Made by a program: the position numbers and the translations under genes. Positions 7,811 through 23,135 of a stretch of DNA of 32,000 nucleotides are shown here, piece by piece (position 1 is the first letter of the stretch; every line of letters begins with the position of its first letter). The stretch covers positions 20,652-52,651 of the forward strand of contig JBMOJK010000003.1 in NCBI GenBank assembly GCA_049315825.1, in the 5' to 3' direction. Below the pieces are notes generated by a model. It did not search any database, had not been told where the DNA came from, and saw only the letters and a program-made list of their open reading frames with translations. This DNA is from Patescibacteria group bacterium. Its GTDB lineage: Bacteria; Patescibacteriota; Gracilibacteria; BD1-5; UBA2023.

Positions 7811-9511
7811 ATGTCAGAAAAAAATACTCACGATATCGTATCAAATAGCCACGAGATTGCCTCCGGAAATAAGGAGGCACATCCCGTCTTTGCAGAAAAA
7901 CCTCAAACACGCGAACAGATCAACATGGAAACAGCAAACGATCGTATTCGCCTACTCCAGTCTGAAGAAAAAAAGACAAAAGACCTCGAGCGCAAAGGAG
8001 AGATTCGCACACAAATTAACGCGATTCGTCGTGAAAACAATCGCAATGCTCAGAAAGATGCCTACATCAATCCTACACTTACACAGGATGCCTCCTTTGC
8101 AAAACAAGCAAAAGAGCTTCTTGGTGATGGTTCAGTAGACAGCATTTCTGCAAAAAATCTCCTCAAATTAGAGCGCACAAAACGTGGATCTCTTTCAAAG
8201 TTTTTTGCATTCAAAAAAACAACAGATGAAAAGGGGAATGATCTTGAGGAGCCACTTGATGTATCCAAGATTAAGGAAGGTGATAATATCATTATTGATT
8301 TTGGTCGGAATTCTAGCGCAGATATCAAGATAGGTGCAGGGGATCTTATTCCAATAAACATCCAAGCAGTCTCTATTACAGACACTAAAGGTCGAGTACG
8401 GGTAGGAATTCGTTCCGTGGTAAACGGCAAGGTTGGTTACTATGATGAAAGTGGATATATGGAGATTCACAACGGATACACACTCCATATTCTTACAGCA
8501 AAAGAAGTGAAATCTGCACTCACTGCACTTGAAGGAAAGGTAACACTGAGCACTGACGAAAAGAAAGAAAATGATGCAATGGATAGTTTTATTGAACAGG
8601 CCGATCGATTCCCTTCTCTTGCCCAGCGACTCACAAGTTCAAATATTGAACAATATAAGTCATATCAAGAGAAAGCAACTGTGCTCGCAAAACAAATAGA
8701 AAGTGAAACTGGTATCCCATGGCAAGTAACCTATGGTCAAGCTACTCTTGAGACTGGCTATGGTCAACATGCACCAGGGAATAATTACTTTGGAATGAAG
8801 GGTTCTGGGCAATCACAAAAGACGAAGGAGGTGATTAATGGTGTGGAAGTAACCGTACAAGCAGGATTCAAGACATACGCCAGCATGGAAGAATCATTTG
8901 CAGACTATGCGCGACTCATATCAACAAGCGCACGCTACAAAAAGGCATTTGAATTTAAAAATGATCCAGAAGCATTCCTTACAGAAATCATTCGAGGTGG
9001 ATACGCAACAGATCTTGCATATGTCGGGAAAGTAAAATCTATCTGGTGAGATTATGAAAACATTTACAATGCTACCCCAGAAAATATAGCACGCGTTCAA
9101 ATTGACCCGTCTATCAAAGTAGATCCAGACACACTCATTGCTCACGCTGAGAAATATCTCGGCATGAAATATCAGCTCGGTGCAGATGGAACAAGTGCAA
9201 TCGACTGTTCGCAGCTTGTGGTAGAATCTCTCAAGCAAGCAGGAGCTGTTGGCTCAGGGTTTGATACCACTGCTGCTGGATTTCACTCCGTTACAAAGCC
9301 AAAAAAAGCACATGAGGTACAGCGCGGTGATTTCGTGTTTCTTAAAAACGGCAGTAATATTACTCATATCGAAATCGCAACAGGTCCAGCTGTAAATGGA
9401 GTTATTCCCATCATTGATGCAAGCGGACGTAGCAACGCAGGAAAAGTTGCCTATCGCGAACAACGAATTGATAGTCATGTACTCGTTGGAACTCCTACGT
9501 TCTACGCATAA
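7811..9511 (+). CDS. bifunctional peptidoglycan hydrolase (N-acetylglucosaminidase domain + NlpC/P60 endopeptidase domain)
   Basis: Track ORFs 7811-9049 and 9164-9511 share a frame and join through TGA 9047-9049. The middle region has a FlgJ/glucosaminidase-like segment (GQATLETGYG...NYFGMKG...SFADYARL...GYATD). The C-terminus is NlpC/P60-like (YLGMKYQLGADG..AIDCSQLV...GDFVFL...ITHIEIATG). The ~280-aa N-terminus is hydrophilic with no signal peptide. Confidence 0.75.
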
Positions 9512-11871: not shown

Positions 11872-13074
11872 CTAGTTGTAATTCACGTAAGTATTTACTG
11901 TGAGTGAGTTATTGTTCTCATCGCGCTCTCGAACTGCATTGATCGTGTCTACGACCGCACGAGTTGTGTAGTATCCGCTGTAGTACATATTGAGGAGATT
12001 GAACTGTACGTAAACATCCTGACATGTATCTCCAGCAAGACTCATCGTAACATTTACGCTGCGAGTTGTATTAGCTGCCGTGAGTTCCACATTGGTTGTT
12101 GTTCCTGAGAACATAGACGCTCCACGGTTACAGATGTTCACAACGAATTCGCGAGATGATCCATTCTGCTTAATGTTGTTTACCACGAGATCAGGTCGGC
12201 TTGAGTAGTCGTTGTTGTAGCAGTTGCTATTGTTGTATCCACAGTTGCAGTTGTTGCCAGTGCAGTAGTAGTATCCATTACAGTTGTTACCATTACAGTT
12301 GTTGTAGTAATTTCCGTAACAATTATTGTAGTAATAGTCGTAGTTATAGTTTCCATTTGAGCCATTTACATAGTCAAATGTGTTATACGTGTTTGTTCGA
12401 TAGTATTCATTTCGGGTAGGACATGGAACATAGTTTCCATTTGAGCCATAATACCAGCCGTTGTCTCGATATATATAGATTACATTCCCAGCGTTACTTG
12501 TTTGACCGTAGAATGGCCCTGAAGGACTAAAGTTGATAGGATCAGTATTGGAAGTGCTCGTAGAAGTATAGTTCGTATTGGTTGGCTTGTACCAAGTAGT
12601 AGCCGAATTTGAATTATTCCAAAGATCACGTGAAGGATTTGTAGAAACTACCTCTCCATCGGTCATTGCAACCGAAGGCTTGAGAACATACTGATTGTTG
12701 TCTGTTACCATTTCACGACGATTTCCATCCCATCGGATCGTTGTGGTGATGTTGTAGTTGCGCTCGTATGGTTTCCCAAAAGTTCCAGCTGAAGAAATCT
12801 CAAATGTCTGACATCGACCTGCCTGTATAGAAACACCGGAGATTGTGCGCTCGATAGATTTTGCTGATGTACCGCGGGCATTGAGCACGATACTTCCGAT
12901 CCCATTGGAAGTATCTCCACGATTACAAACTACCATTGTGAAAGTTCGTGCGCTTTTCTGAACAAATGAAGTGAGTTCAAGATCAGGTACTCCGTCATAG
13001 AGTGCATTAAATCCTGCGGATGCACTAGAAACGGTTGCACCGAGCGCGAGGAGAGCGAGCATGATACGTCGCAT
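11872..13074 (-). CDS. secreted protein with two CARDB-like domains and an Asn/Tyr/Cys-rich linker
   Basis: Start reassigned to ATG 13074 (MRRIMLALLALGATVSSASA signal peptide). Both halves show the CARDB-type pattern PDL..., CNRG..., ...D..N.V.E.DENNN. There is no in-frame TGA. Confidence 0.6.
   Translation of the reverse strand: MRRIMLALLALGATVSSASAGFNALYDGVPDLELTSFVQKSARTFTMVVCNRGDTSNGIGSIVLNARGTSAKSIERTISGVSIQAGRCQTFEISSAGTFGKPYERNYNITTTIRWDGNRREMVTDNNQYVLKPSVAMTDGEVVSTNPSRDLWNNSNSATTWYKPTNTNYTSTSTSNTDPINFSPSGPFYGQTSNAGNVIYIYRDNGWYYGSNGNYVPCPTRNEYYRTNTYNTFDYVNGSNGNYNYDYYYNNCYGNYYNNCNGNNCNGYYYCTGNNCNCGYNNSNCYNNDYSSRPDLVVNNIKQNGSSREFVVNICNRGASMFSGTTTNVELTAANTTRSVNVTMSLAGDTCQDVYVQFNLLNMYYSGYYTTRAVVDTINAVRERDENNNSLTVNTYVNYN
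12199..12366 (-). repeat. low-complexity coding repeat (N/Y/C/G-rich)
   Basis: Encodes GSNGNYNYDYYYNNCYGNYYNNCNGNNCNGYYYCTGNNCNCGYNNSNCYNNDYS. The DNA is built from GTTGTT/GTAGTA/GCAGTT-type units. Confidence 0.8.
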
Positions 13075-17624: not shown

Positions 17625-20051
17625 ATGCAGAGCGCAATGCATATATCTACACCATTCCCACCTCGGCCATTCTCACTTCGCGAGACTGCTCTTGAGCTCT
17701 TCGAAGAAGCCCAGTTCAAAAAACGCGGATCGCGTTTTGAGAAATTCAAATCCGATTGGAAACGAGATTCCAAGAAACGTCTTGTTCTCGGACTTACTCT
17801 CGCAGGCTGAGCTATCATCGCAACAGCTACTGGTGCTACTGCGATTGCAGGAGCGATGCTCGCAACCCGTGCAGCCGTTGGAGCGATTGGTGGTTTTCTG
17901 ACAACAGAGGCTCTGTTTGATATCGGGAAATCAAAACTCTCACAAAGTCAGATCACTCAACTACTCAACACTATCGAACGAGCTAATGACTTCAACGAAG
18001 TCCTCAAAACTATTGCTGAAATCGAACAATCCTATGCTTCGGAACATCTAGAATCTGCTTTTCGAGAAGCTCAACGAAAAAAGGTGCGATTCGAAGCTGT
18101 AAAAAAGATATCTGCCGTAACGGTTGCTGCGGTACTCGGAGTGCTGGGTGGATCACACGCAGCAGAAGCTGCAACTGAGTCGGTTTCTCAAAGTGCAACT
18201 CCTATCGTTCCTGTTCCTACTTCTACCTCTGTTTCAGCGAATTTACCTCCTATTGCACCTCACAATCCACCTCCTTCCATGAAAGATATTTTCGCGGATA
18301 TTCGACACGATCATCCAACACAGCGATATGTCACACTCGAACAAAGCATCAGACGTATCGAAGGACTTAAACAAGGGATTGCTCTCGAAGAAAGTGAGAA
18401 ACTCACCACTCTCAACAACGAGATTTCCCGGCTCGTCCATAATCCGAACGGCCACATCGCAACGATAATCGATGAACTTGGATATCGTTCACCAGGAGAA
18501 ACCATAGATCAGGCTGCTCGCAAACTTCAGGAAAAGGATCTTCAAGAAATCCTTGAAAAATACATCGAACAAACCACTCCTACAGCAACACCCACACCCA
18601 CTGACATTATATCCCCAGTTGCACTTCAAAGCACACCTGCATCAAACTCAACAATCGAACTCGACTCCGCAAGACTCACAACAGAAACACCTCAGGATGA
18701 TCTAGAACAAAAAGGCTGGTACCACCATGCATTTGGAAAGATACTCATCGGATGAACTGCCTTATTGAGTGCCTTTGGTATCGGAAGAATGAGTAAAAAA
18801 GACGATACGACTACAGTAACACCAACACAAGAAACTACGACAAATCCCGTAGTGATTCCCCCGATAGTCGAAGAGCCCTCAGAGTCCACGGTAAACACCG
18901 TAGCTCAGCCTCCAGTGACACAGGCTGCTGAAAATGATGCTGCTCAAAATATCGTCGATGACACCCTGCAAACAACCTCAGTACATAATAATACAACCGA
19001 GCATGAACATGCAGCAAATGAGCCTGAAGAAATCTCTATAGAGCAACACGTGCGTGATCTCATGAATACTGGAAAGCACTATCAATGGCTCCTTGATCGC
19101 GAGAAAACACGGGCCAGTAGTGAAAAAGCACATGTATGCTTTAGAGCACCAACGCTTTGAGGGGAGTTTGAGATGAGATTCGAGATCACACACACATCGT
19201 ATCATTTTGCGGTCATCTGGCACGAAGCAGGCATTGGAAGGCATCATGTAGACTCTGGAAAAATAGAATCCTCAACAATCCCACGCGACCTCACAGAGCG
19301 ATCAGTATTCCTACAAGAACTCATCGAAAAGTACTTCTTCGAGATCCTCGACTATCGCGAAGAACAAAAGACGATGGAAATGCGAAGTCTCCATACGGTC
19401 GAGATCACCAAACAAGATCTCAAAGCCATCTACCAGCAACTCGAGCATCCAGAGACCGTAGCACTTGACCATGAGACGGGTGGTTGGTGGTACATGGATA
19501 GTTATCGACTGCACAACGGGAAAATACGGATGATAAATTTGCACAATCCCCCATATGAGCTCATTGATGCATCACCAGTAATATTCAAGGTGAAGTCAAC
19601 CGAGACTGGAATGAAGTACGACCATGTTAGAGAGGTAGACTATATGAAAGCAAACTACTCACACATAGAGACGAAGTGGATGATCGAAAGAAGAGAAGAG
19701 GACTTAGAAGTAACTCCTCGTGCATGGTTCAAAACTGGTATGGTCAGTGGATTTAACTGGCATAAGCATTGCTCAGAAACCCTTCGTCATCCAAGTGGAG
19801 GAGATATCAATGATCCAGCATGTGCAACTCTTGCATTTAATAAATCGAATGTTCAAGCTCATACTTGGGCCATCCTCACTCCGCTCACAGATCCTCACTT
19901 CAGACCAGAATCTCATCAGGTCATCCTGGGGGAACCATGACAACGACGATACGTACTCAGTTATTGGGCACTCAATCGAAATCCACAAAACATTCACGGT
20001 CGATATACCCACCGAGATCTTCGAAAGATCAACGTAGAGGTGGTCGATTAA
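17625..20051 (+). CDS. large membrane protein (808 aa under code 25) with a C-terminal JAMM/MPN+-like domain
   Basis: Track ORFs 17625-17810, 17856-18755, 18765-19160 and 19173-19940 are all in frame 0. They join through TGAs 17808, 18753, 19158 and 19938 and end at TAA 20049-20051. Gly/Ala-rich TM segments surround the first two TGAs. The C-terminal part has ETGGWW (19473-) and HKHCSETLRHPSGGD (19761-19805). An SD-like GAGGGGAG plus ATG 19173 directly follows TGA 19158, so a separate 255-292-aa product cannot be excluded. Confidence 0.55.
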
Positions 20052-20054
20052 TCC

Positions 20055-20122
20055 CCGGCACTTTATGTGCCGGAGGGAGGGTGCTGCGCTATCACTCTCC
20101 CTCCGGTGCAGAAATGCACCGG
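20055..20122 (+). promoter_or_regulatory. three overlapping GC-rich hairpins (structured RNA, complex terminator or leader)
   Basis: H1: CCGGCAC (20055-61) / GTGCCGG (20067-73). H2: CCGGAGGGAG (20070-79) / CTCCCTCCGG (20097-106). H3: CCGGTGCA (20103-10) / TGCACCGG (20115-22). H2 shares its CCGG ends with H1 and H3, so the structures are mutually exclusive. No T-tail follows. Confidence 0.5.
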
Positions 20123-20156
20123 AAGTTCATTAACACTCTCGAAGAAAGGATTTTCC

Positions 20157-20663
20157 ATGCACTCTTTTTGGACTTTGTTTAAAGCAGATTTTCTGGCGGA
20201 GACACTGTCCATGGTGCTCTTTTCTGGAAAACATCCGAGATTTATTGCATTCATATTTCTCTTGTTTGTAGGGATCTATTATGTGATTCGTACATGCCTG
20301 AGGATTTGCATCTTTGTTATCTGTTTACCATTTCGTACGAAACATGCTCGGATCAAACACTCGCTCAATACAACTACTCGCGTAGCTCGTAAATTCGGGG
20401 ATGTTTGTTCTCGTATTAGCTCACACGAGAAGTATCTTCAGATTCAAATAACGGGAGAAAATTGGTCCAATCAGATCAATCACATCCTCTATCGAGTCAA
20501 CAAAGATACTGGTTTGCTTCAGATTTTCATATATCGAAATCATGATTCACTTCAGCTGGATTATGCATTTTTGTTGCATCATGCCGGCCTTCCGTACGGT
20601 TGTGAACTCACTCATGAGTCACTCCCCTTGATCCACCAAAAAATTCGCACCAATCTACTCTAG
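20157..20663 (+). CDS. hypothetical membrane protein (168 aa)
   Basis: ATG 20157 lies inside track ORF 20067-20663, with GAAAGGA 6 nt upstream. Hydrophobic segments include FIAFIFLLFVGIYYVI and ICIFVICL. Stop TAG. Confidence 0.5.
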   Translation: MHSFWTLFKADFLAETLSMVLFSGKHPRFIAFIFLLFVGIYYVIRTCLRICIFVICLPFRTKHARIKHSLNTTTRVARKFGDVCSRISSHEKYLQIQITGENWSNQINHILYRVNKDTGLLQIFIYRNHDSLQLDYAFLLHHAGLPYGCELTHESLPLIHQKIRTNLL

Positions 20664-20671
20664 GGGTTATT

Positions 20672-20917
20672 ATGAAAGCGTTTATTTCTCTTGTTCTCGT
20701 TGGTGGACTTGTTGGCTGCAGTTCTACTCCAGCATACAATCCACCTATTCAAAAACCTATTACTACCATCGAATCTGTACCAGCCCCCAGCAGACCAACA
20801 CCCCCCAATAAATTCGATCTCGAAAAACGCAAAAAACGTCTCGAGCTCATCCGCAAAGCAACGGAGAGATCATGAAAAAGTATATTATTTGGATTTTATG
20901 CTTCATGCCTCTGTTAA
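20672..20917 (+). CDS. small lipoprotein
   Basis: Signal peptide with lipobox LVGC (MKAFISLVLVGGLVGCSS). Track ORF ends at TGA 20873-20875, which forms an ATGA overlap with the next gene. Under code 25 it reads on 14 codons to TAA 20915-20917. Confidence 0.55.
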
Positions 20918-21432
20918 GTTTTGCAGAGGTAGCTGGAGATGTAAAAGCCTTGAAACTACAACTTCAATCAATAAATCAAGAGCGGAAACTCGCTCGCGAT
21001 AAGGCGAATAGAATCTTTGCAGAATATGAGAAGGGCGAAGTGGATGAAGATGAGATCGATCACGAATATCAGGCTATTGAGAGTCAAATTACCGCTCTCA
21101 ATGGCCAGAAACAAGATATCGAAAATCGTATTAGAAATCTTGAGGTCACAGAAGCACAAAAGCCCCTGACACATCCAGTTCCAAAGCCCAAAGAAGTTAC
21201 CAAAGAATCTACCCCGCCACCTTCTGGCGGACTCGCTTCTTATGGCGGTAATTTTGTTGCTGATGGCTTACTTTTAGTAGGTCGTATAGTTATCTTCACC
21301 ATTGCTTTTGTAGTGATACTTTTTTGTATCGGACTCGCTATTGAGATTCGAGACAAAAACAAAGTATCTTCTATAGAAAAAATTGAATTATCTGGCAAAC
21401 ACAGTGGTCGAGTCCCCGATCATCTACTCTAG
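20872..21432 (+). CDS. secreted/membrane coiled-coil protein with C-terminal TM anchor (186 aa)
   Basis: N-terminal signal peptide (IIWILCFMPLLSFA), heptad-like charged region, Pro-rich linker and C-terminal TM (IVIFTIAFVVILFCIGLAI). GGAGAG lies upstream of the ATG. Confidence 0.6.
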   Translation: MKKYIIWILCFMPLLSFAEVAGDVKALKLQLQSINQERKLARDKANRIFAEYEKGEVDEDEIDHEYQAIESQITALNGQKQDIENRIRNLEVTEAQKPLTHPVPKPKEVTKESTPPPSGGLASYGGNFVADGLLLVGRIVIFTIAFVVILFCIGLAIEIRDKNKVSSIEKIELSGKHSGRVPDHLL

Positions 21433-21443
21433 AAAGGACTATC

Positions 21444-21905
21444 ATGCCTCGTGATACAAACGCCCTACCGAATTGGGTGAAAAAAAATCCGGAAAAGTAC
21501 AGCAAGCGACTTCAGTACGAAGCAGCTATGCTCTACAAACAATTCCCGTTTCTTGGCTTTTTCATGAAAGGAGATTCACTACGGATAGAAGGACCTGTAA
21601 TGTCGGCAAGTCTCAATGTGTATCAGATTCGTGTAGTTTACGAAGCTGAATATCCAGCGAGACCGCCAAGCGCCTTTATCATTGATAAAGATATATCAGA
21701 GTTTTGTAGTAAAGATGGAAACCGTGGTCACAATTTCCATAACTACGGAATGGAAGCCAATGGTCTCGGACTCTGCCTCATGGCTCAAGATGAATGGAGC
21801 CCTCAACGTTCTGGTATTTCAGTAGTTGAATATGCAATTGCTTGGGTCAATGCATATGAATTTAAGCGTATGCGTGGATACTGGCCATTGCGCGAAACAA
21901 AGTAG
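21444..21905 (+). CDS. ubiquitin-conjugating enzyme (UBC/E2)-like protein
   Basis: AAAGGA SD. VVYEAEYPARPPSAFI resembles the E2 YPfxPPxvxF motif. HNFHNYGMEANGLGLCLMAQDEWSP resembles the E2 HPN...G.ICLdiL...WSP active site, with candidate catalytic Cys111 (TGC 21774-21776). Confidence 0.6.
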   Translation: MPRDTNALPNWVKKNPEKYSKRLQYEAAMLYKQFPFLGFFMKGDSLRIEGPVMSASLNVYQIRVVYEAEYPARPPSAFIIDKDISEFCSKDGNRGHNFHNYGMEANGLGLCLMAQDEWSPQRSGISVVEYAIAWVNAYEFKRMRGYWPLRETK

Positions 21906-21943
21906 TTTTTCATATATCTCAATACAATACAAGGAGCAATATC

Positions 21944-22186
21944 ATGGGTAGCACAACTAGAACTGAATACAAAATCCCAGGAATGGGTGACGTAGGTACG
22001 CCTGGAAACAGACGTCCAATTAATATTTCAGCACTCGATGCAGCCTTCAAGGATTATCGAGAAGGCGACGGTGTTGTTATGGATCCACGTGGTGTCATTC
22101 ATGGTGGAAATTCTCGCCCTGCTCAAGAACTCATTAATAATAGTGAGTCAGTAGCAATACTCATGGATGAACCTACTACAATGTAG
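21944..22186 (+). CDS. 80-aa protein between E2 and E1 (candidate ubiquitin-like modifier precursor or substrate)
   Basis: AAGGAG SD 8 nt upstream. Double stop TAGTAG. Internal ...GVIHGG (GG = 22103-22108, residues 54-55) is followed by a 25-aa tail. There is no C-terminal GG. Confidence 0.55.
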   Translation: MGSTTRTEYKIPGMGDVGTPGNRRPINISALDAAFKDYREGDGVVMDPRGVIHGGNSRPAQELINNSESVAILMDEPTTM

Positions 22187-22225
22187 TAGTCCACATTCTC
22201 GAATAAAGACAAGGAGAAATACATA

Positions 22226-23092
22226 ATGGATACTGCAGACTGCAAAACAGGAAGTGGTTTTCGTAATCTAAATCATCTCGAAAACCACTTCCACTCCCCC
22301 AATCCACGTCGCGATGCGCTCATTCCTCCTTTGCGGGGAAAGCGGGTCGTGGTGGTGGGGTTGGGTGGTGGTGCACCGATACCGATTGAGCTTTTGAAGT
22401 GTGGTGTGGATGCGTTTGATCTTGTGGATTTCGATATTCTCGAGCCCCACAATGCCATCCGTCATCCATGCCCGGCAAAATACTTCGGTCGCCCAAAGGT
22501 CGAAGCAGTTGCTGAGTTTATGCGAGAACTCGCCGGATCACAGGTGGAGATCAACCCACATGTGATCGATGTATTCAAACATCACGACACCCTGAAAGAT
22601 CTCATCAACAATGCAGACCTCCTCATCGTTGCAACTGACAGCGAAGCTTCGCGGTTTTTTCTCAATGAAATCGCCGTCGAAACCAAAACCCCCGCTGTCT
22701 ACGTTGGAATGTACGAAAACGGTTCTGGCGGAGAAATTTTCGCTGCTATGCCCGGACAGGCATGCTATGCATGCCTGTCTCACTACAACCAGCGTGAAAC
22801 CTTCATGCAACAATACCGAACTGCCACCCGCAAGGGCGACTGCAGTTCAAATCGCGATACCCTGGCTATGCCAGGCTTGGGTATCGATCAGGGCATGCTC
22901 GCCCTCATTGCGGCACGCAAGTCCGTGGAAATCCTTCTTCGTGGAGTGCAACACTCCCTTCCTCCAGCCGGAGGAAACTGGATCGTGTTCTCGATTTTCG
23001 GTATCACCAAAATACTCGAATCTCCGCTTACATGCTTCCAGGGCGACCTCGCGCAACATTCCAAATGCTTTGCGTGCGGCGATCCGTACTAA
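22226..23092 (+). CDS. ThiF/MoeB/E1-like adenylyltransferase
   Basis: AAGGAG SD. Rossmann nucleotide loop VVVVGLGGGAPIP, DLVDFDILEPHNAIRH (the E1/ThiF DxDxxxxSNLxRQ region), and paired CxxC motifs (CYAC, CFAC). 288 aa. G+C is visibly higher than in the neighbours. Confidence 0.8.
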   Translation: MDTADCKTGSGFRNLNHLENHFHSPNPRRDALIPPLRGKRVVVVGLGGGAPIPIELLKCGVDAFDLVDFDILEPHNAIRHPCPAKYFGRPKVEAVAEFMRELAGSQVEINPHVIDVFKHHDTLKDLINNADLLIVATDSEASRFFLNEIAVETKTPAVYVGMYENGSGGEIFAAMPGQACYACLSHYNQRETFMQQYRTATRKGDCSSNRDTLAMPGLGIDQGMLALIAARKSVEILLRGVQHSLPPAGGNWIVFSIFGITKILESPLTCFQGDLAQHSKCFACGDPY

Positions 23093-23095
23093 AAC

Positions 23096-23135
23096 AATCC
23101 CCCTTCATAACTCGTAAGAGCGTAGAAGGGGGATT
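23096..23135 (+). terminator. hairpin terminator candidate after the E1 gene
   Basis: Perfect 11-bp stem AATCCCCCTTC / GAAGGGGGATT with an 18-nt loop, 4 nt after the stop. The T-tail is weak (TT only). Confidence 0.5.

What the first reader, a model, noticed from the sequence alone, without database searches (positions are those of the whole stretch)
19158..23092. The cassette looks written in the standard code: no internal TGA, TGAs only at apparent gene ends, and a GC-rich E1 gene
From 20157 to 23092 none of the six ORFs contains an internal in-frame TGA. Most other genes in the window carry 1-8 each.

The three TGAs in or next to the block sit where a standard-code annotation would place stops:
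- 19158-60 is followed by GAGGGGAG-N6-ATG (19173).
- 19938-40 is followed by an Arg-rich 37-codon tail.
- 20873-75 forms a classic ATGA stop/start overlap with the next gene, followed by a 14-codon tail (GKSILFGFYASCLC).

Hand counts of 60-nt stretches inside the E1 gene (22291-22350, 22351-22410, 22801-22860, 22861-22920) give 38, 34, 32 and 37 G+C. The same count gives 24 in the E2 gene (21541-21600) and 22 in the wall-hydrolase gene (8281-8340).

Together this suggests recent acquisition from a standard-code donor or mobile element, with TGA stops now read through as Gly. That would be a visible footprint of gene transfer across genetic codes.

Two caveats apply. The 6.9-kb A2M gene has only two TGAs, so TGA density is uneven. 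Hairpin H1 starts 3 nt after TAA 20051, which fits the code-25 stop.
Basis: partly seen in the sequence, partly recalled or inferred. Interest (0 to 1): 0.7.

Follow-up and report, generated by a model that had tools for sequence, protein, structure and literature searches.

The report
Standard-code genes inside a recoded genome
[quoted passage not shown] They look as if they are kept readable in the ordinary genetic code, for a reason not yet known.

Summary
The sequence facts are right. The window is code 25 (TGA = Gly), the ORFs from 20157 to 23092 have no internal TGA, and E1 is the most GC-rich gene.

Two of the three "stop-like" TGAs are not stops. TGAs 19158 and 19938 are conserved glycine codons inside one 808-codon membrane-anchored JAB peptidase gene (17625-20051). 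Only TGA 20873, with its ATGA overlap, sits at a true gene end.

"Recent acquisition" is refuted. The cluster is syntenic in 17 Gracilibacteria species genomes and 3 metagenome contigs. E1/E2 trees match the tree of the adjacent JAB gene.

In every genome E1, E2, "small" and g20157 hold 0 TGA among 760 Gly codons, against 366 of 827 in the same-locus JAB gene. Conserved Gly columns cycle through all four GGN codons but never TGA. In two genomes E1's other synonymous sites match the host's extreme AT bias.

TGA is the terminal codon in 21 of 69 of these genes, against 0 of 26 neighbouring genes.

So long-term selection keeps the conjugation half of an E1-E2-JAB module compatible with the standard code, while its deconjugase needs UGA = Gly. 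The reason is inferred only. My best guess is function during a state in which UGA is not read as glycine, for example phage interference.

The parts
17625..20051 (+). Membrane-anchored JAB/MPN+ peptidase gene. It is an ordinary code-25 gene with in-frame TGA (Gly) at 17808, 18753, 19158 and 19938, and its real stop is TAA 20049-20051. It has an N-terminal TM/coiled region and a C-terminal JAB domain (about 19173-20048).
   Evidence: - It is one continuous ORF in every related locus that holds both parts.
- TGA 17808 and 18753 lie in Gly-rich TM helices. TGA 19158 and 19938 align with conserved Gly.
- The JAMM residues are invariant: E74, H170, H172, S181, D184.
- PADLOC JAB models hit up to 6 of 14 members, best E = 5.5e-5. 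Pfam Prok-JAB is weak, in 5 of 14 members.
- The ATG 17625 start is provisional.
20055..20125 (+). Hairpin-forming intergenic stretch directly after the JAB stop codon (first stem CCGGCAC/GTGCCGG, 20055-20073).
   Evidence: Read from the sequence. The pattern scan did not call it a T-run terminator. Its function was not tested.
20157..20663 (+). g20157: a small membrane protein with a conserved C-terminal 'LRxNxL'. It is TGA-free and stops at TAG.
   Evidence: Orthologues were found in 11 loci with 0 TGA among 94 Gly codons. In L005 it ends directly on TGA.
20672..20875 (+). Lipoprotein gene (lipobox LVGC). Homology ends at '...KATERS', directly before TGA 20873-20875, which overlaps the ATG of the next gene (ATGA). 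If TGA is read as Gly, a 14-residue tail follows, to TAA 20915-20917.
   Evidence: Orthologues end at the same point with TAA or TAG in L002, L004 and L007. They end with TGA in L005, L006 and L008.
20872..21432 (+). g20872: signal peptide, coiled coil, TM helix and a tail ending in the conserved extreme C-terminus HSGRVPDHLL. It is TGA-free and stops at TAG. It is a candidate substrate of the E1 (inferred).
   Evidence: The family was found in 14 loci with 0 TGA among 160 Gly codons. The C-terminal motif is always directly followed by a stop-like codon: TAA 9, TAG 1, TGA 4.
21444..21905 (+). E2-like (UBC-fold) conjugating enzyme. It is TGA-free and stops at TAG.
   Evidence: - PADLOC E2 models, best E = 9.1e-11.
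- Invariant H..H..G and G..LC cysteine.
- 0 TGA among 188 Gly codons in 17 loci.
21944..22189 (+). 'small': an 80-codon ORF in frame with E1 and separated from it by TAG TAG (22184-22189). In most relatives it is the N-terminal domain of E1. It is TGA-free.
   Evidence: Fused 347-374-aa E1 homologues are listed, and the fusion is visible. 0 TGA among 79 Gly codons in 11 loci.
22226..23092 (+). E1-like adenylating enzyme (ThiF/MoeB/UBA fold). It is TGA-free, stops at TAA, and is the most GC-rich gene in the window (0.52).
   Evidence: - Pfam ThiF E = 7.6e-26. PADLOC E1-E2 E = 2.5e-28.
- The AF2 model of the orthologue P0003 has pLDDT 86. Foldseek top hits are UBA5, MoeB, MccB and ThiF.
- 0 TGA among 446 Gly codons in 21 loci.
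23097..23134 (+). Hairpin after E1 (ATCCCCCTTC ... GAAGGGGGAT). It is the likely end of the transcription unit.
   Evidence: Fold of the downstream 120 nt. The equivalent G+C-rich hairpins with T-runs follow E1 in relatives.

Best explanation
**What it is.** The block is the conjugation half of a vertically inherited E1-E2-JAB protein-conjugation module of Gracilibacteria-type code-25 bacteria. It holds two membrane proteins with conserved C-termini, a lipoprotein, E2, and E1 with its N-terminal 'small' domain.

**Shown here.**
- Purifying selection, not recent transfer, keeps these genes free of in-frame UGA.
- That selection also tolerates UGA at their stop positions. They therefore encode the same proteins whether UGA is read as glycine or as stop.
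- The JAB peptidase gene in the same cluster uses UGA like any other gene of the genome. It can be made only while UGA = Gly.

**Inferred purpose.** The module has to function in a cellular state in which UGA is not decoded as glycine. The most likely such state is interference with UGA decoding by UGA-free phages, through a phage release factor 2 or loss of tRNA-Gly(UCA). In that state E1, E2 and their substrates are still made correctly. The UGA-dependent JAB deconjugase is no longer made, so conjugation runs unopposed.
For: **Selection against in-frame TGA**
- E1, E2, small and g20157 hold 0 TGA among 760 Gly codons. The JAB gene of the same 20 loci holds 366 TGA among 827. Each locus is individually below 0.05.
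- The g20872 family adds 0 of 160.
- E2, small, g20157 and g20872 were not used to find the loci, so their result is free of ascertainment bias.
- At 13 conserved Gly columns of E1, 21 sequences use GGA 95, GGT 76, GGC 48, GGG 31 and TGA 0. Seven conserved Gly columns of the JAB gene use TGA 57 times out of 126.
- Only the reading frame is affected. Out-of-frame TGA counts in E1 are 45 and 145.
- In relatives where 74-92% of Gly codons are TGA, E1 and E2 still have none.
- In L012 and L013, E1's four-fold GC3 equals the host's.

**Vertical co-inheritance**
- Gene trees show the same clades, with Mantel r between 0.70 and 0.84.
- Synteny with UPF0489, gmk and A2M is conserved.

**TGA at stop positions**
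- 21 of 69 cassette genes, against 0 of 26 ordinary genes; Fisher P = 6e-4.
- After E1 the TGA is followed by a noncoding conserved hairpin and an intrinsic terminator.
- In L005 all five genes end on TGA.

**Plausibility of the trigger (literature)**
- Most predicted Gracilibacteria phages lack in-frame TGA (PMC10746230).
- Phage-encoded RF2 exists (10.1101/2021.08.26.457843).
- prfB is absent from BD1-5 genomes (PMC6851277).
- E1/E2/JAB modules act in antiphage immunity elsewhere (10.1101/2024.11.21.623953).
- JAB, E1 and E2 identities rest.
Against: **The trigger is untested.**
- No phage, RF2 gene or tRNA nuclease was linked to these genomes.
- No relative of the E1 was found in viral contigs.
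- No defence-island context is evident in the window. The neighbours are housekeeping genes.

**The module's biological role is unknown.** It could be a housekeeping membrane-protein modification system rather than a defence system.

**The JAB gene looks neutral with respect to TGA.** Its TGA content is roughly at background. This shows only that the gene is not under the avoidance. It does not show that it is a designed sensor.

**Terminal TGAs are a minority.** They make up 30% of stops and could be tolerated read-through tails, possibly trimmed by the JAB peptidase.

**The property is not exclusive to this module.** Other TGA-free genes exist in TGA-rich relatives: a PAS-GGDEF gene and a DapD-like gene in L023, and a secreted protein in L018.
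Confidence: 0.5

Rival explanations
1. One reading: the block was recently acquired from a standard-code donor or mobile element. It has not yet picked up TGA-Gly codons, and its former TGA stops are now read through.
For: - In the window the block is TGA-free and E1 is the GC maximum.
- In many relatives E1 and E2 have higher four-fold GC3 than the same-locus JAB gene (16 of 20 loci, mean +0.08).
- TGA-free, GC-richer genes that may be recent imports do occur in relatives. An example is L018 1325-1993, with GC3 0.67 against 0.44.
Against: - The same cluster is present in 17 species and 3 contigs of the clade, with conserved neighbours.
- E1 and E2 trees are congruent with the native-looking JAB gene.
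- E1 protein identities are 40-66%, and conserved Gly columns are saturated among the GGN codons.
- In L012 and L013 GC3 is fully ameliorated, yet there are still 0 TGA in 20 Gly codons against an 84-92% background.
- No close homologue was found outside the clade among 185,579 species genomes.
Confidence: 0.03
2. Shuttle model: the module is a code-agnostic mobile cassette. It repeatedly moves between code-25 and standard-code cells by plasmids, phages or transformation. Only TGA-free versions survive the round trips.
For: - TGA-free phages predicted to infect both kinds of host are a precedent (PMC10746230).
- Gene order in the cluster differs between subclades.
- GC3 is elevated in many genomes.
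- Stop-codon usage resembles that of a standard-code genome.
Against: - All 17 genome hits are code-25 MAGs of one clade.
- There were no viral hits.
- The TGA-rich JAB gene, which could not work in a standard-code cell, co-evolves with E1 and E2. In one subclade it sits between them.
- No integrase or transfer genes flank the window copy.
Confidence: 0.08
3. Ordinary translational selection: UGA decoding by tRNA-Gly(UCA) is slower or less accurate. These particular proteins are selected to avoid it. Terminal TGAs are harmless read-through tails, perhaps trimmed by the JAB peptidase as in Ubl maturation. No special cellular state is involved.
For: - Low-level mistranslation of UGA was seen by proteomics in a BD1-5 bacterium (PMC4032931).
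- JAB-type and other peptidases do trim C-terminal extensions of Ubl precursors in related systems (10.1101/2024.11.21.623953).
- GC3 is elevated in E1 and E2, as in codon-optimised genes.
Against: - In relatives where TGA is the major Gly codon (74-92%), avoiding it means using rare codons. That is the opposite of codon optimisation.
- Avoidance is absolute even in poorly conserved linker-rich membrane proteins, where a Gly error would be harmless.
- Housekeeping enzymes in the same loci use TGA heavily. I identified these by eye as HisRS, Tgt, HtrA, HflX and PBP.
- It does not explain why TGA is enriched at stop positions of E1 and E2 themselves. There, read-through runs into terminators or hundreds of out-of-frame codons.
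Confidence: 0.2
4. Trans-cellular expression: the TGA-free genes are written for the standard-code bacterial host of these episymbionts and are expressed there after transfer, by analogy with T-DNA. The code-25-only JAB gene protects the producer.
For: - The genes behave as if they are selected under the standard code, including TGA stops.
- Their products include secreted or membrane proteins.
- By my own knowledge, Gracilibacteria and Absconditabacteria are episymbionts or predators of standard-code bacteria.
Against: - I know of no mechanism for DNA or mRNA delivery from these bacteria.
- There are no transfer or border features in the locus.
- The signal-peptide logic works equally well in the producer cell.
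Confidence: 0.04

Closest known systems
Code-11-compatible (TGA-free) phages predicted to infect Gracilibacteria and Absconditabacteria (Liu et al. 2023, PMC10746230)
   Same: These are genes associated with code-25 hosts that have no in-frame TGA. They use all three standard stop codons and so read the same in both codes.
   Different: - Those are whole phage genomes, explained by a broad host range.
- Here it is a chromosomal, vertically inherited part of one operon-like cluster in the host itself. It is interleaved with a TGA-using gene of the same system.
- Prophages in those hosts were reported to be TGA-rich.
Stop-codon-recoded phages whose early genes stay standard-code compatible (Borges et al., 10.1101/2021.08.26.457843)
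   Same: One genome is partitioned into genes that are readable in two codes and genes readable in only one. That paper proposes this as a way to gate expression by the state of the translation machinery. Phage release factors and suppressor tRNAs act as the switches.
   Different: - The polarity is opposite. There a standard-code host is infected by a recoded phage.
- No switch factor has been identified here.
- The partition here runs between the conjugating and deconjugating halves of one module.
Bacterial E1/E2/JAB conjugation modules: Bil operons and type II CBASS Cap2/Cap3
   Same: - An E1-like adenylating enzyme (ThiF fold).
- A UBC-like E2 with a conserved cysteine.
- A JAB/MPN+ peptidase in one gene cluster.
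- More distant E1 relatives in standard-code bacteria sit next to E2-CBASS and Prok-JAB genes.
   Different: - No CD-NTase or effector (CBASS).
- No recognisable Ubl ending in Gly (Bil).
- The JAB is fused to a long membrane-anchored N-terminal region.
- The extra conserved partners are a lipoprotein and two membrane proteins with conserved C-termini ending in Leu, Thr or Ile.
- E1 carries a novel N-terminal 'small' domain.
Bub (bacterial ubiquitination-like) operons (Ye et al. 2024, 10.1101/2024.11.21.623953)
   Same: A diverged E1/E2 pathway with a dedicated peptidase that processes a precursor.
   Different: Bub works through serine oxyesters and uses a Ser-His protease. Here the E2 cysteine and an E1 loop cysteine (C206) are invariant, and the peptidase has the JAMM metal motif.

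Membership tests
Genetic code 25 genome (Gracilibacteria/Absconditabacteria type) | In-frame TGA at positions where homologues have conserved glycine | tested here: met
   - Walker A and 'PTSG' motifs of two ABC transporters.
- Conserved Gly columns of the JAB gene are TGA in 57 of 126 codons across 20 loci.
- All related loci are Gracilibacteria, Peribacteria or Patescibacteria MAGs.
Genetic code 25 genome (Gracilibacteria/Absconditabacteria type) | Absence of release factor 2 (prfB) and presence of tRNA-Gly(UCA) | not testable with these tools
   Only 32 kb of the genome is available, and the window holds no tRNA. The literature reports that prfB is absent from BD1-5 genomes (PMC6851277).
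E1-like adenylating enzymes (ThiF/MoeB/UBA superfamily) | ThiF-family Rossmann-type adenylation domain with a Gly-rich nucleotide loop and the overall E1 fold | tested here: met
   - Pfam ThiF 91 bits against a cut-off of 28.
- Invariant GLGGG, R79, D138 and two CxxC pairs.
- The AF2 model of orthologue P0003 has pLDDT 86. Foldseek hits UBA5, MoeB, MccB and ThiF at E about 1e-15.
E2 (UBC-like) conjugating enzymes | UBC-fold profile match and a conserved catalytic cysteine after an HxN-like motif | tested here: met
   - 12 PADLOC E2 models match, best E = 9.1e-11.
- Invariant H..H..G and G..LC in 17 orthologues.
- Pfam gave no hit for the window protein, but the orthologue in L023 carries precomputed PF26395 E2-CBASS.
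JAB/MPN+ (JAMM) metallopeptidases | E...HxHx(7-9)SxxD metal-binding motif within an MPN fold | tested here: inconclusive
   - The motif residues are invariant in 14 divergent sequences.
- 14 PADLOC JAB models hit members, best E = 5.5e-5.
- Pfam Prok-JAB is only weak. The PDB profile hit has E = 0.58 over the motif.
- The fold could not be tested, because the AF2 model reached only pLDDT 34.
Bil-type ubiquitin-like conjugation system | A beta-grasp Ubl with C-terminal glycine encoded in the operon | tested here: not met
   No ORF of the block ends in Gly, and none hits a Ubl family. The candidate substrates end in ...VPDHLL and ...IRTNLL. Their folds were not predicted.
Type II CBASS | CD-NTase and effector genes next to the Cap2 (E1-E2) and Cap3 (JAB) genes | tested here: not met
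   No such genes are in the window or the related loci. E1 and E2 are separate proteins.
Bub pathway | Serine (oxyester) catalytic residues in E1/E2 and a Ser-His peptidase | tested here: not met
   An invariant cysteine is present in E2 and in the E1 loop (C206). The peptidase has the JAMM motif.
Recently transferred genomic island | Patchy presence among relatives, a gene tree incongruent with neighbours, and unameliorated composition | tested here: not met
   - The cluster is present in all 20 related loci.
- Trees are congruent.
- GC3 tracks host GC3 and equals it in L011-L013, L015 and L016.
Code-11-compatible phage or prophage | Phage hallmark genes (terminase, portal, tail, integrase), or membership of viral contigs | tested here: not met
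   There is no phage family in the block, and no relative in 2.9 million viral contigs.

The most novel reading that the evidence does not exclude
Code-25 bacteria have a second, recurrent translational state in which UGA is not glycine. In that state UGA is read as stop or left undecoded, either imposed by phage or switched on by the cell. A conserved set of chromosomal genes is written for that state. In this module the genetic code itself acts as the switch. The conjugating enzymes and their substrates are readable in both states. The deconjugating JAB peptidase is readable only when UGA = Gly. Losing UGA decoding would therefore turn conjugation on.
Probability: 0.3. Interest if true: 0.9.

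Novelty: new variant of a known kind. Interest (0 to 1): 0.8.

Why it matters
Stop-codon reassignment is usually treated as a genome-wide, all-or-nothing property of a lineage. Here one functional module of the host chromosome has been held compatible with the standard code across the diversification of a code-25 clade. It even uses UGA at stop positions, although the literature reports that these bacteria lack RF2.

This implies a selective environment in which UGA is not glycine. It makes a testable prediction: something switches or attacks UGA decoding in these cells.

It also offers three practical points:
- **A genomic marker.** TGA-free, vertically inherited genes could be used to find other genes that must work in that state.
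- **A caution for annotation.** Under code 25 these genes gain false C-terminal extensions or fusions. Under code 11 the JAB gene is split, as in the public record of this contig.
- **A new kind of module.** It describes a previously uncharacterised membrane-associated E1-E2-JAB system that is widespread in Gracilibacteria.

Tried and rejected
**Searches and predictions that led nowhere**
- **Exact-sequence look-up of E1.** It returned only a 1.1-kb contig with no context.
- **Viral contigs.** A scan with the E1 profile found no relatives.
- **Metagenome scan with a JAB profile.** The first alignment was too divergent to search. The second found 129 pattern matches, but none was confirmed. This was intended as a TGA-independent way to ascertain loci. 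The unbiased evidence therefore rests on E2, small, g20157 and g20872, which were not used to find the loci.
- **Structure of the JAB domain.** A 4-sequence alignment gave pLDDT 34, so no fold search was run on it.
- **Literature.** Searches found no report of TGA-free chromosomal gene sets, or of this E1/E2/JAB module, in Gracilibacteria.

**Ideas tested and dropped**
- **Positionally conserved 'sentinel' TGAs in the JAB gene.** Three conserved-Gly columns have TGA in 5 of 9-10 low-TGA genomes, against a mean of 0.19. With 22 columns and related sequences this is weak, so I dropped it as evidence.
- **Avoidance of the TGA trinucleotide as an RNA or DNA motif.** Out-of-frame TGAs are normal.
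- **A coding 'VPQWN' tail after E1 in L005 and L007.** The similarity comes from a conserved hairpin, GTTCCAcaaTGGAAC, that precedes the terminator.
- **A separate gene starting at ATG 19173.** Neither the Met nor the Shine-Dalgarno sequence is conserved, and the ORF is continuous in all relatives.

**An error of my own**
- One row of my window gene table (STAS) was in the wrong frame. I excluded it from the numbers I quote.

Full report
**1. The window and its code**

ORF structure shows that TGA is a sense codon here. The 6.9-kb A2M gene and a 1,258-codon helicase-like gene are open only if TGA is read through.

TGA falls on glycines that are invariant in the protein families concerned. Examples are 'ALVgPTGGGKT' and 'PTSgTI' in two ABC transporters. 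This is translation table 25.

The identical E1 protein is on a 68.5-kb NCBI MAG contig named 'Patescibacteria group bacterium' (P0001). All 17 related loci from species-representative genomes are Gracilibacteria, Peribacteria or Patescibacteria MAGs.

**2. Checking the observation**

- The ORFs from 20157 to 23092 have no internal TGA.
- All six G+C hand counts are exact.
- E1 (GC 0.52) is the highest of all gene-sized windows (mean 0.442, sd 0.025).

Inside this one window the absence of TGA is only weakly significant.
- The block has 67 Gly codons. About 5.6% of Gly codons outside it are TGA, which gives P about 0.02. I recomputed this by hand after removing a mis-framed row.
- Other genes are also TGA-free: dUTPase, gmk, a flavodoxin-like gene and a 396-codon N/Y-rich gene.
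- A2M has a TGA-free run of 1,182 codons, longer than the block.

**3. What the genes are**
- E1 (22226-23092) is a ThiF-family enzyme: Pfam E = 7.6e-26 and PADLOC E1-E2 models at 2.5e-28.
- An AlphaFold model of the orthologue P0003, which includes the fused N-terminal 'small' domain, has pLDDT 86. It matches UBA5, MoeB, MccB and ThiF.
- E2 (21444-21905) matches 12 PADLOC E2 models (best 9.1e-11). It has an invariant cysteine in G..LC.
- The 80-codon ORF 21944-22186 is in frame with E1 and separated from it by TAG TAG. In most relatives it is the N-terminal domain of a 347-374-residue E1.
- g20872 is a signal-peptide, coiled-coil and TM protein. Its extreme C-terminus, HSG(E/R)VPDxL(T/L/I), is conserved in 14 loci and always abuts a stop-like codon.
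- g20157 is a small membrane protein ending in LRxNxL.
- 20672-20875 encodes a lipoprotein.
- More distant E1 relatives (31-38% identity) in standard-code bacteria sit beside E2-CBASS, a small ORF and a Prok-JAB gene.

**4. The left edge of the finding is a different kind of gene**

The stretch 17625-20051 is a single gene. The ORF is continuous in every related locus that holds both parts.
- TGA 17808 and 18753 lie in glycine-rich TM helices.
- TGA 19158 aligns with a conserved Gly-Gly ('KTLGgEF').
- TGA 19938 aligns with '[YF]GG..DY..FW'. The 37 codons after it are conserved to the C-terminus.
- In L002 that glycine is a GGN codon, and the protein simply continues.

The C-terminal domain carries an invariant E...HxHx8SxxD JAMM motif. 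It is hit by 14 PADLOC JAB models (best 5.5e-5) and weakly by Pfam Prok-JAB. Its fold could not be confirmed.

The GAGGGGAG-N6-ATG is a chance match.

The public annotation of this contig was evidently made in code 11. It lists 19173-19937 as a 255-residue hypothetical protein (P0052).

**5. The decisive comparison**

I ran a code-25 tblastn of the window's proteins against the 17 genome loci and 3 further contigs. The whole cluster is conserved, in two gene orders.

| Genes | In-frame TGA | GGN Gly codons | Loci |
|---|---|---|---|
| E1 | 0 | 446 | 21 |
| E2 | 0 | 188 | 17 |
| small | 0 | 79 | 11 |
| g20157 | 0 | 94 | 11 |
| g20872 family | 0 | 160 | 14 |
| JAB gene, N-terminal part | 217 | 308 | 19 |
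| JAB gene, C-terminal part | 149 | 153 | 20 |
| UPF0489 | 16 | 104 | 8 |

- Paired within loci, the four families give 0 TGA in 760 Gly codons, against 366 of 827 for the JAB gene. Each of the 20 loci is individually significant, and naive log10 P = -207.
- The contrast is starkest in AT-rich relatives, where 74-92% of all Gly codons are TGA. In L012 the neighbours show 38 TGA/8 GGN and 53/4, while E1 shows 0/20.
- Only the reading frame is affected. Out-of-frame TGAs are common in the same genes.
- The loci were found through E1 with GGN-based patterns and a standard-code confirmation, so E1 itself carries some ascertainment bias. E2, small, g20157 and g20872 do not.
- Independently, public protein predictions recover E1 full-length in all 33 close relatives (261-374 residues). 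The JAB protein appears only as fragments of 154-255 residues.

**6. Recent transfer is excluded; selection is required**
- The E1, E2, JAB-domain and N-terminal-region trees show the same clades. Mantel r for E1 against JAB is 0.83, and for E1 against E2 it is 0.84.
- The flanking UPF0489, gmk and A2M genes are syntenic in the nearest relatives.
- E1 proteins are only 40-66% identical to the window's.
- At 13 columns where E1 glycine is conserved, the 21 sequences use GGA 95, GGT 76, GGC 48 and GGG 31, typically three or four codons per column, and never TGA. Seven conserved-Gly columns of the JAB gene use TGA 57 times out of 126.
- GGA, one transversion away from TGA, is the commonest Gly codon in E1.
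- In L012 and L013, E1's four-fold GC3 outside glycine (0.05 and 0.11) equals the host's (0.08 and 0.10).

These sites have therefore turned over many times, and TGA has been removed each time.

**7. TGA at the stop position**

I took the first stop-like codon after the end of C-terminal homology.

| Gene family | TGA is the first stop-like codon |
|---|---|
| E1 | 7 of 20 |
| E2 | 2 of 17 |
| g20157 | 1 of 7 |
| small (where separate) | 3 of 4 |
| g20872 | 4 of 14 |
| lipoprotein | 4 of 7 |
| All cassette families | 21 of 69 |
| JAB, UPF0489, gmk, A2M and other neighbours | 0 of 26 |

- Fisher P = 6e-4.
- After E1, the TGA in L003, L005, L007 and L008 is followed within about 15-40 nt by a G+C-rich hairpin with a T-run. 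In L005 and L007 a small conserved hairpin precedes it. What follows is therefore noncoding.
- In L005 all five genes end on TGA. Read-through would add 258 and 361 out-of-frame codons to g20157 and E1 and would fuse the lipoprotein to g20872.
- The window's own TGA 20873 fits this pattern. The orthologous lipoproteins end at the same '...KATE/ILTE', and L006 and L008 have the same ATGA-type overlap.

These genes thus evolve as if TGA were a stop, in a lineage reported to lack RF2 (PMC6851277).

**8. Composition**

E1's GC-richness is also a conserved trait rather than a local accident. The four-fold GC3 of the TGA-free genes exceeds that of the same-locus JAB gene in 16 of 20 loci (mean +0.08; Wilcoxon P = 6e-4). 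It still tracks host GC from 0.05 to 0.85. Avoiding TGA also raises GC directly, because it forces GGN codons.

**9. How it most likely works**

Shown:
- This is an E1-E2-JAB module.
- Its conjugation half is maintained compatible with the standard code.
- Its JAB half is not.

Inferred:
- The E1 adenylates a protein C-terminus. The invariant termini of g20872 and/or g20157 are the candidates, and MccB-like N-terminal substrate clamps are a structural precedent.
- The E2 cysteine passes the substrate on.
- The membrane-anchored JAB reverses the conjugation or matures the substrate.

The code partition means that when UGA is not read as glycine, only the conjugation half is still made correctly. 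I consider phage interference with UGA decoding the most likely source of that selection, for three reasons:
- Most predicted Gracilibacteria phages are themselves TGA-free (PMC10746230).
- Phage RF2 genes exist (10.1101/2021.08.26.457843).
- Related modules are antiphage (10.1101/2024.11.21.623953).

No step of this was tested. I put about 0.9 on selection-maintained code neutrality and about 0.3 on this particular purpose.

**10. Rivals**
- **Translational accuracy or speed.** This is contradicted in genomes where TGA is the major Gly codon, and by the terminal TGAs.
- **A cassette shuttling through standard-code cells.** This is contradicted by clade-restricted distribution, co-phylogeny with the JAB gene, and the absence of viral relatives.
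- **Expression in the episymbiont's standard-code host.** This fits the code evidence but has no mechanistic support.

One caveat applies to all readings. Other TGA-free genes exist in TGA-rich relatives. These are a PAS-GGDEF gene and a DapD-like gene in L023, and a GC-rich secreted protein in L018. Whether they are recent imports or members of the same class is open.

**11. Verdict**

The 'recent HGT footprint' reading is wrong. What is there is more unusual: a conserved, vertically inherited set of genes held in the standard code inside code-25 genomes. I found no report of this in the searchable literature.

Noticed in passing
window 19173-19937, and the contig's public record: The NCBI record of this MAG contig appears to be annotated in code 11. 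It lists the C-terminal part of the JAB gene as a separate 255-residue hypothetical protein (ACOYN2_02070, P0052). Genes with in-frame TGA on this contig are therefore probably split or truncated in the public annotation.
   Followed up: partly
window 21944-22229: The 'small' ORF and E1 are in the same frame, separated by TAG TAG followed by a new Shine-Dalgarno sequence and ATG. In most relatives the two form one 347-374-residue protein. The window's copy is a split version of a fused gene. The same split occurs in L003 and L015-L018.
   Followed up: partly
L004, L005 and L007, about 10-40 nt after the E1 stop: A conserved small hairpin (GTTCCAcaaTGGAAC, or CTTTCTGCAATGGAAAG in L004) sits between the E1 stop codon and the intrinsic terminator. 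When translated it mimics a conserved 'VPQWN' peptide.
   Followed up: partly
L023 59-907(-), L023 10851-12113(-), L018 1325-1993(-): Other TGA-free genes occur in TGA-rich relatives.
- A PAS-GGDEF protein has 0 TGA/17 GGN.
- A DapD-like hexapeptide protein has 0 TGA in its first 400 codons with 35 GGN. It lies next to TGA-rich lysine-pathway genes.
- A secreted protein has GC3 0.67 against a background of 0.44.

These may be recent imports or further members of a TGA-free gene class.
   Followed up: partly
JAB-gene orthologues; window 17808, 19161 and 19938: In the ten low-TGA genomes the JAB gene uses TGA for 21% of its Gly codons, against roughly 9-22% in same-locus ORFs. Three conserved-Gly columns are TGA in 5 of 9-10 genomes. 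This is suggestive of retained TGAs but statistically weak.
   Followed up: partly
L009 14868-16940: A second paralogous copy of the TM-JAB gene sits about 8 kb from the first. It has no detected E1 or E2 next to it.
   Followed up: no
L015 7294-7740 and 8961-9596; L023 5898-6329: Some relatives carry two E2-like genes in the cluster. The extra copy in L023 is divergent and may be a non-catalytic UEV-like variant. All copies are TGA-free.
   Followed up: no
L018 11035-11280 and L024 2963-3280: A small conserved Tyr/Gly/Lys/Asp-rich ORF ('NGY.DGYKKG...') lies directly after E1 in the AT-rich subclade. It is TGA-free internally, and L024 has a TGA near its end. The window has no counterpart.
   Followed up: no
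window 11872-13062 (-): A 396-codon secreted protein extremely rich in Asn, Tyr and Cys ('NGNYNYDYYYNNCYGNYYNNCNGNNC...') has no in-frame TGA among 31 Gly codons. The opposite strand carries a long spurious code-25 ORF with 12 TGAs.
   Followed up: no
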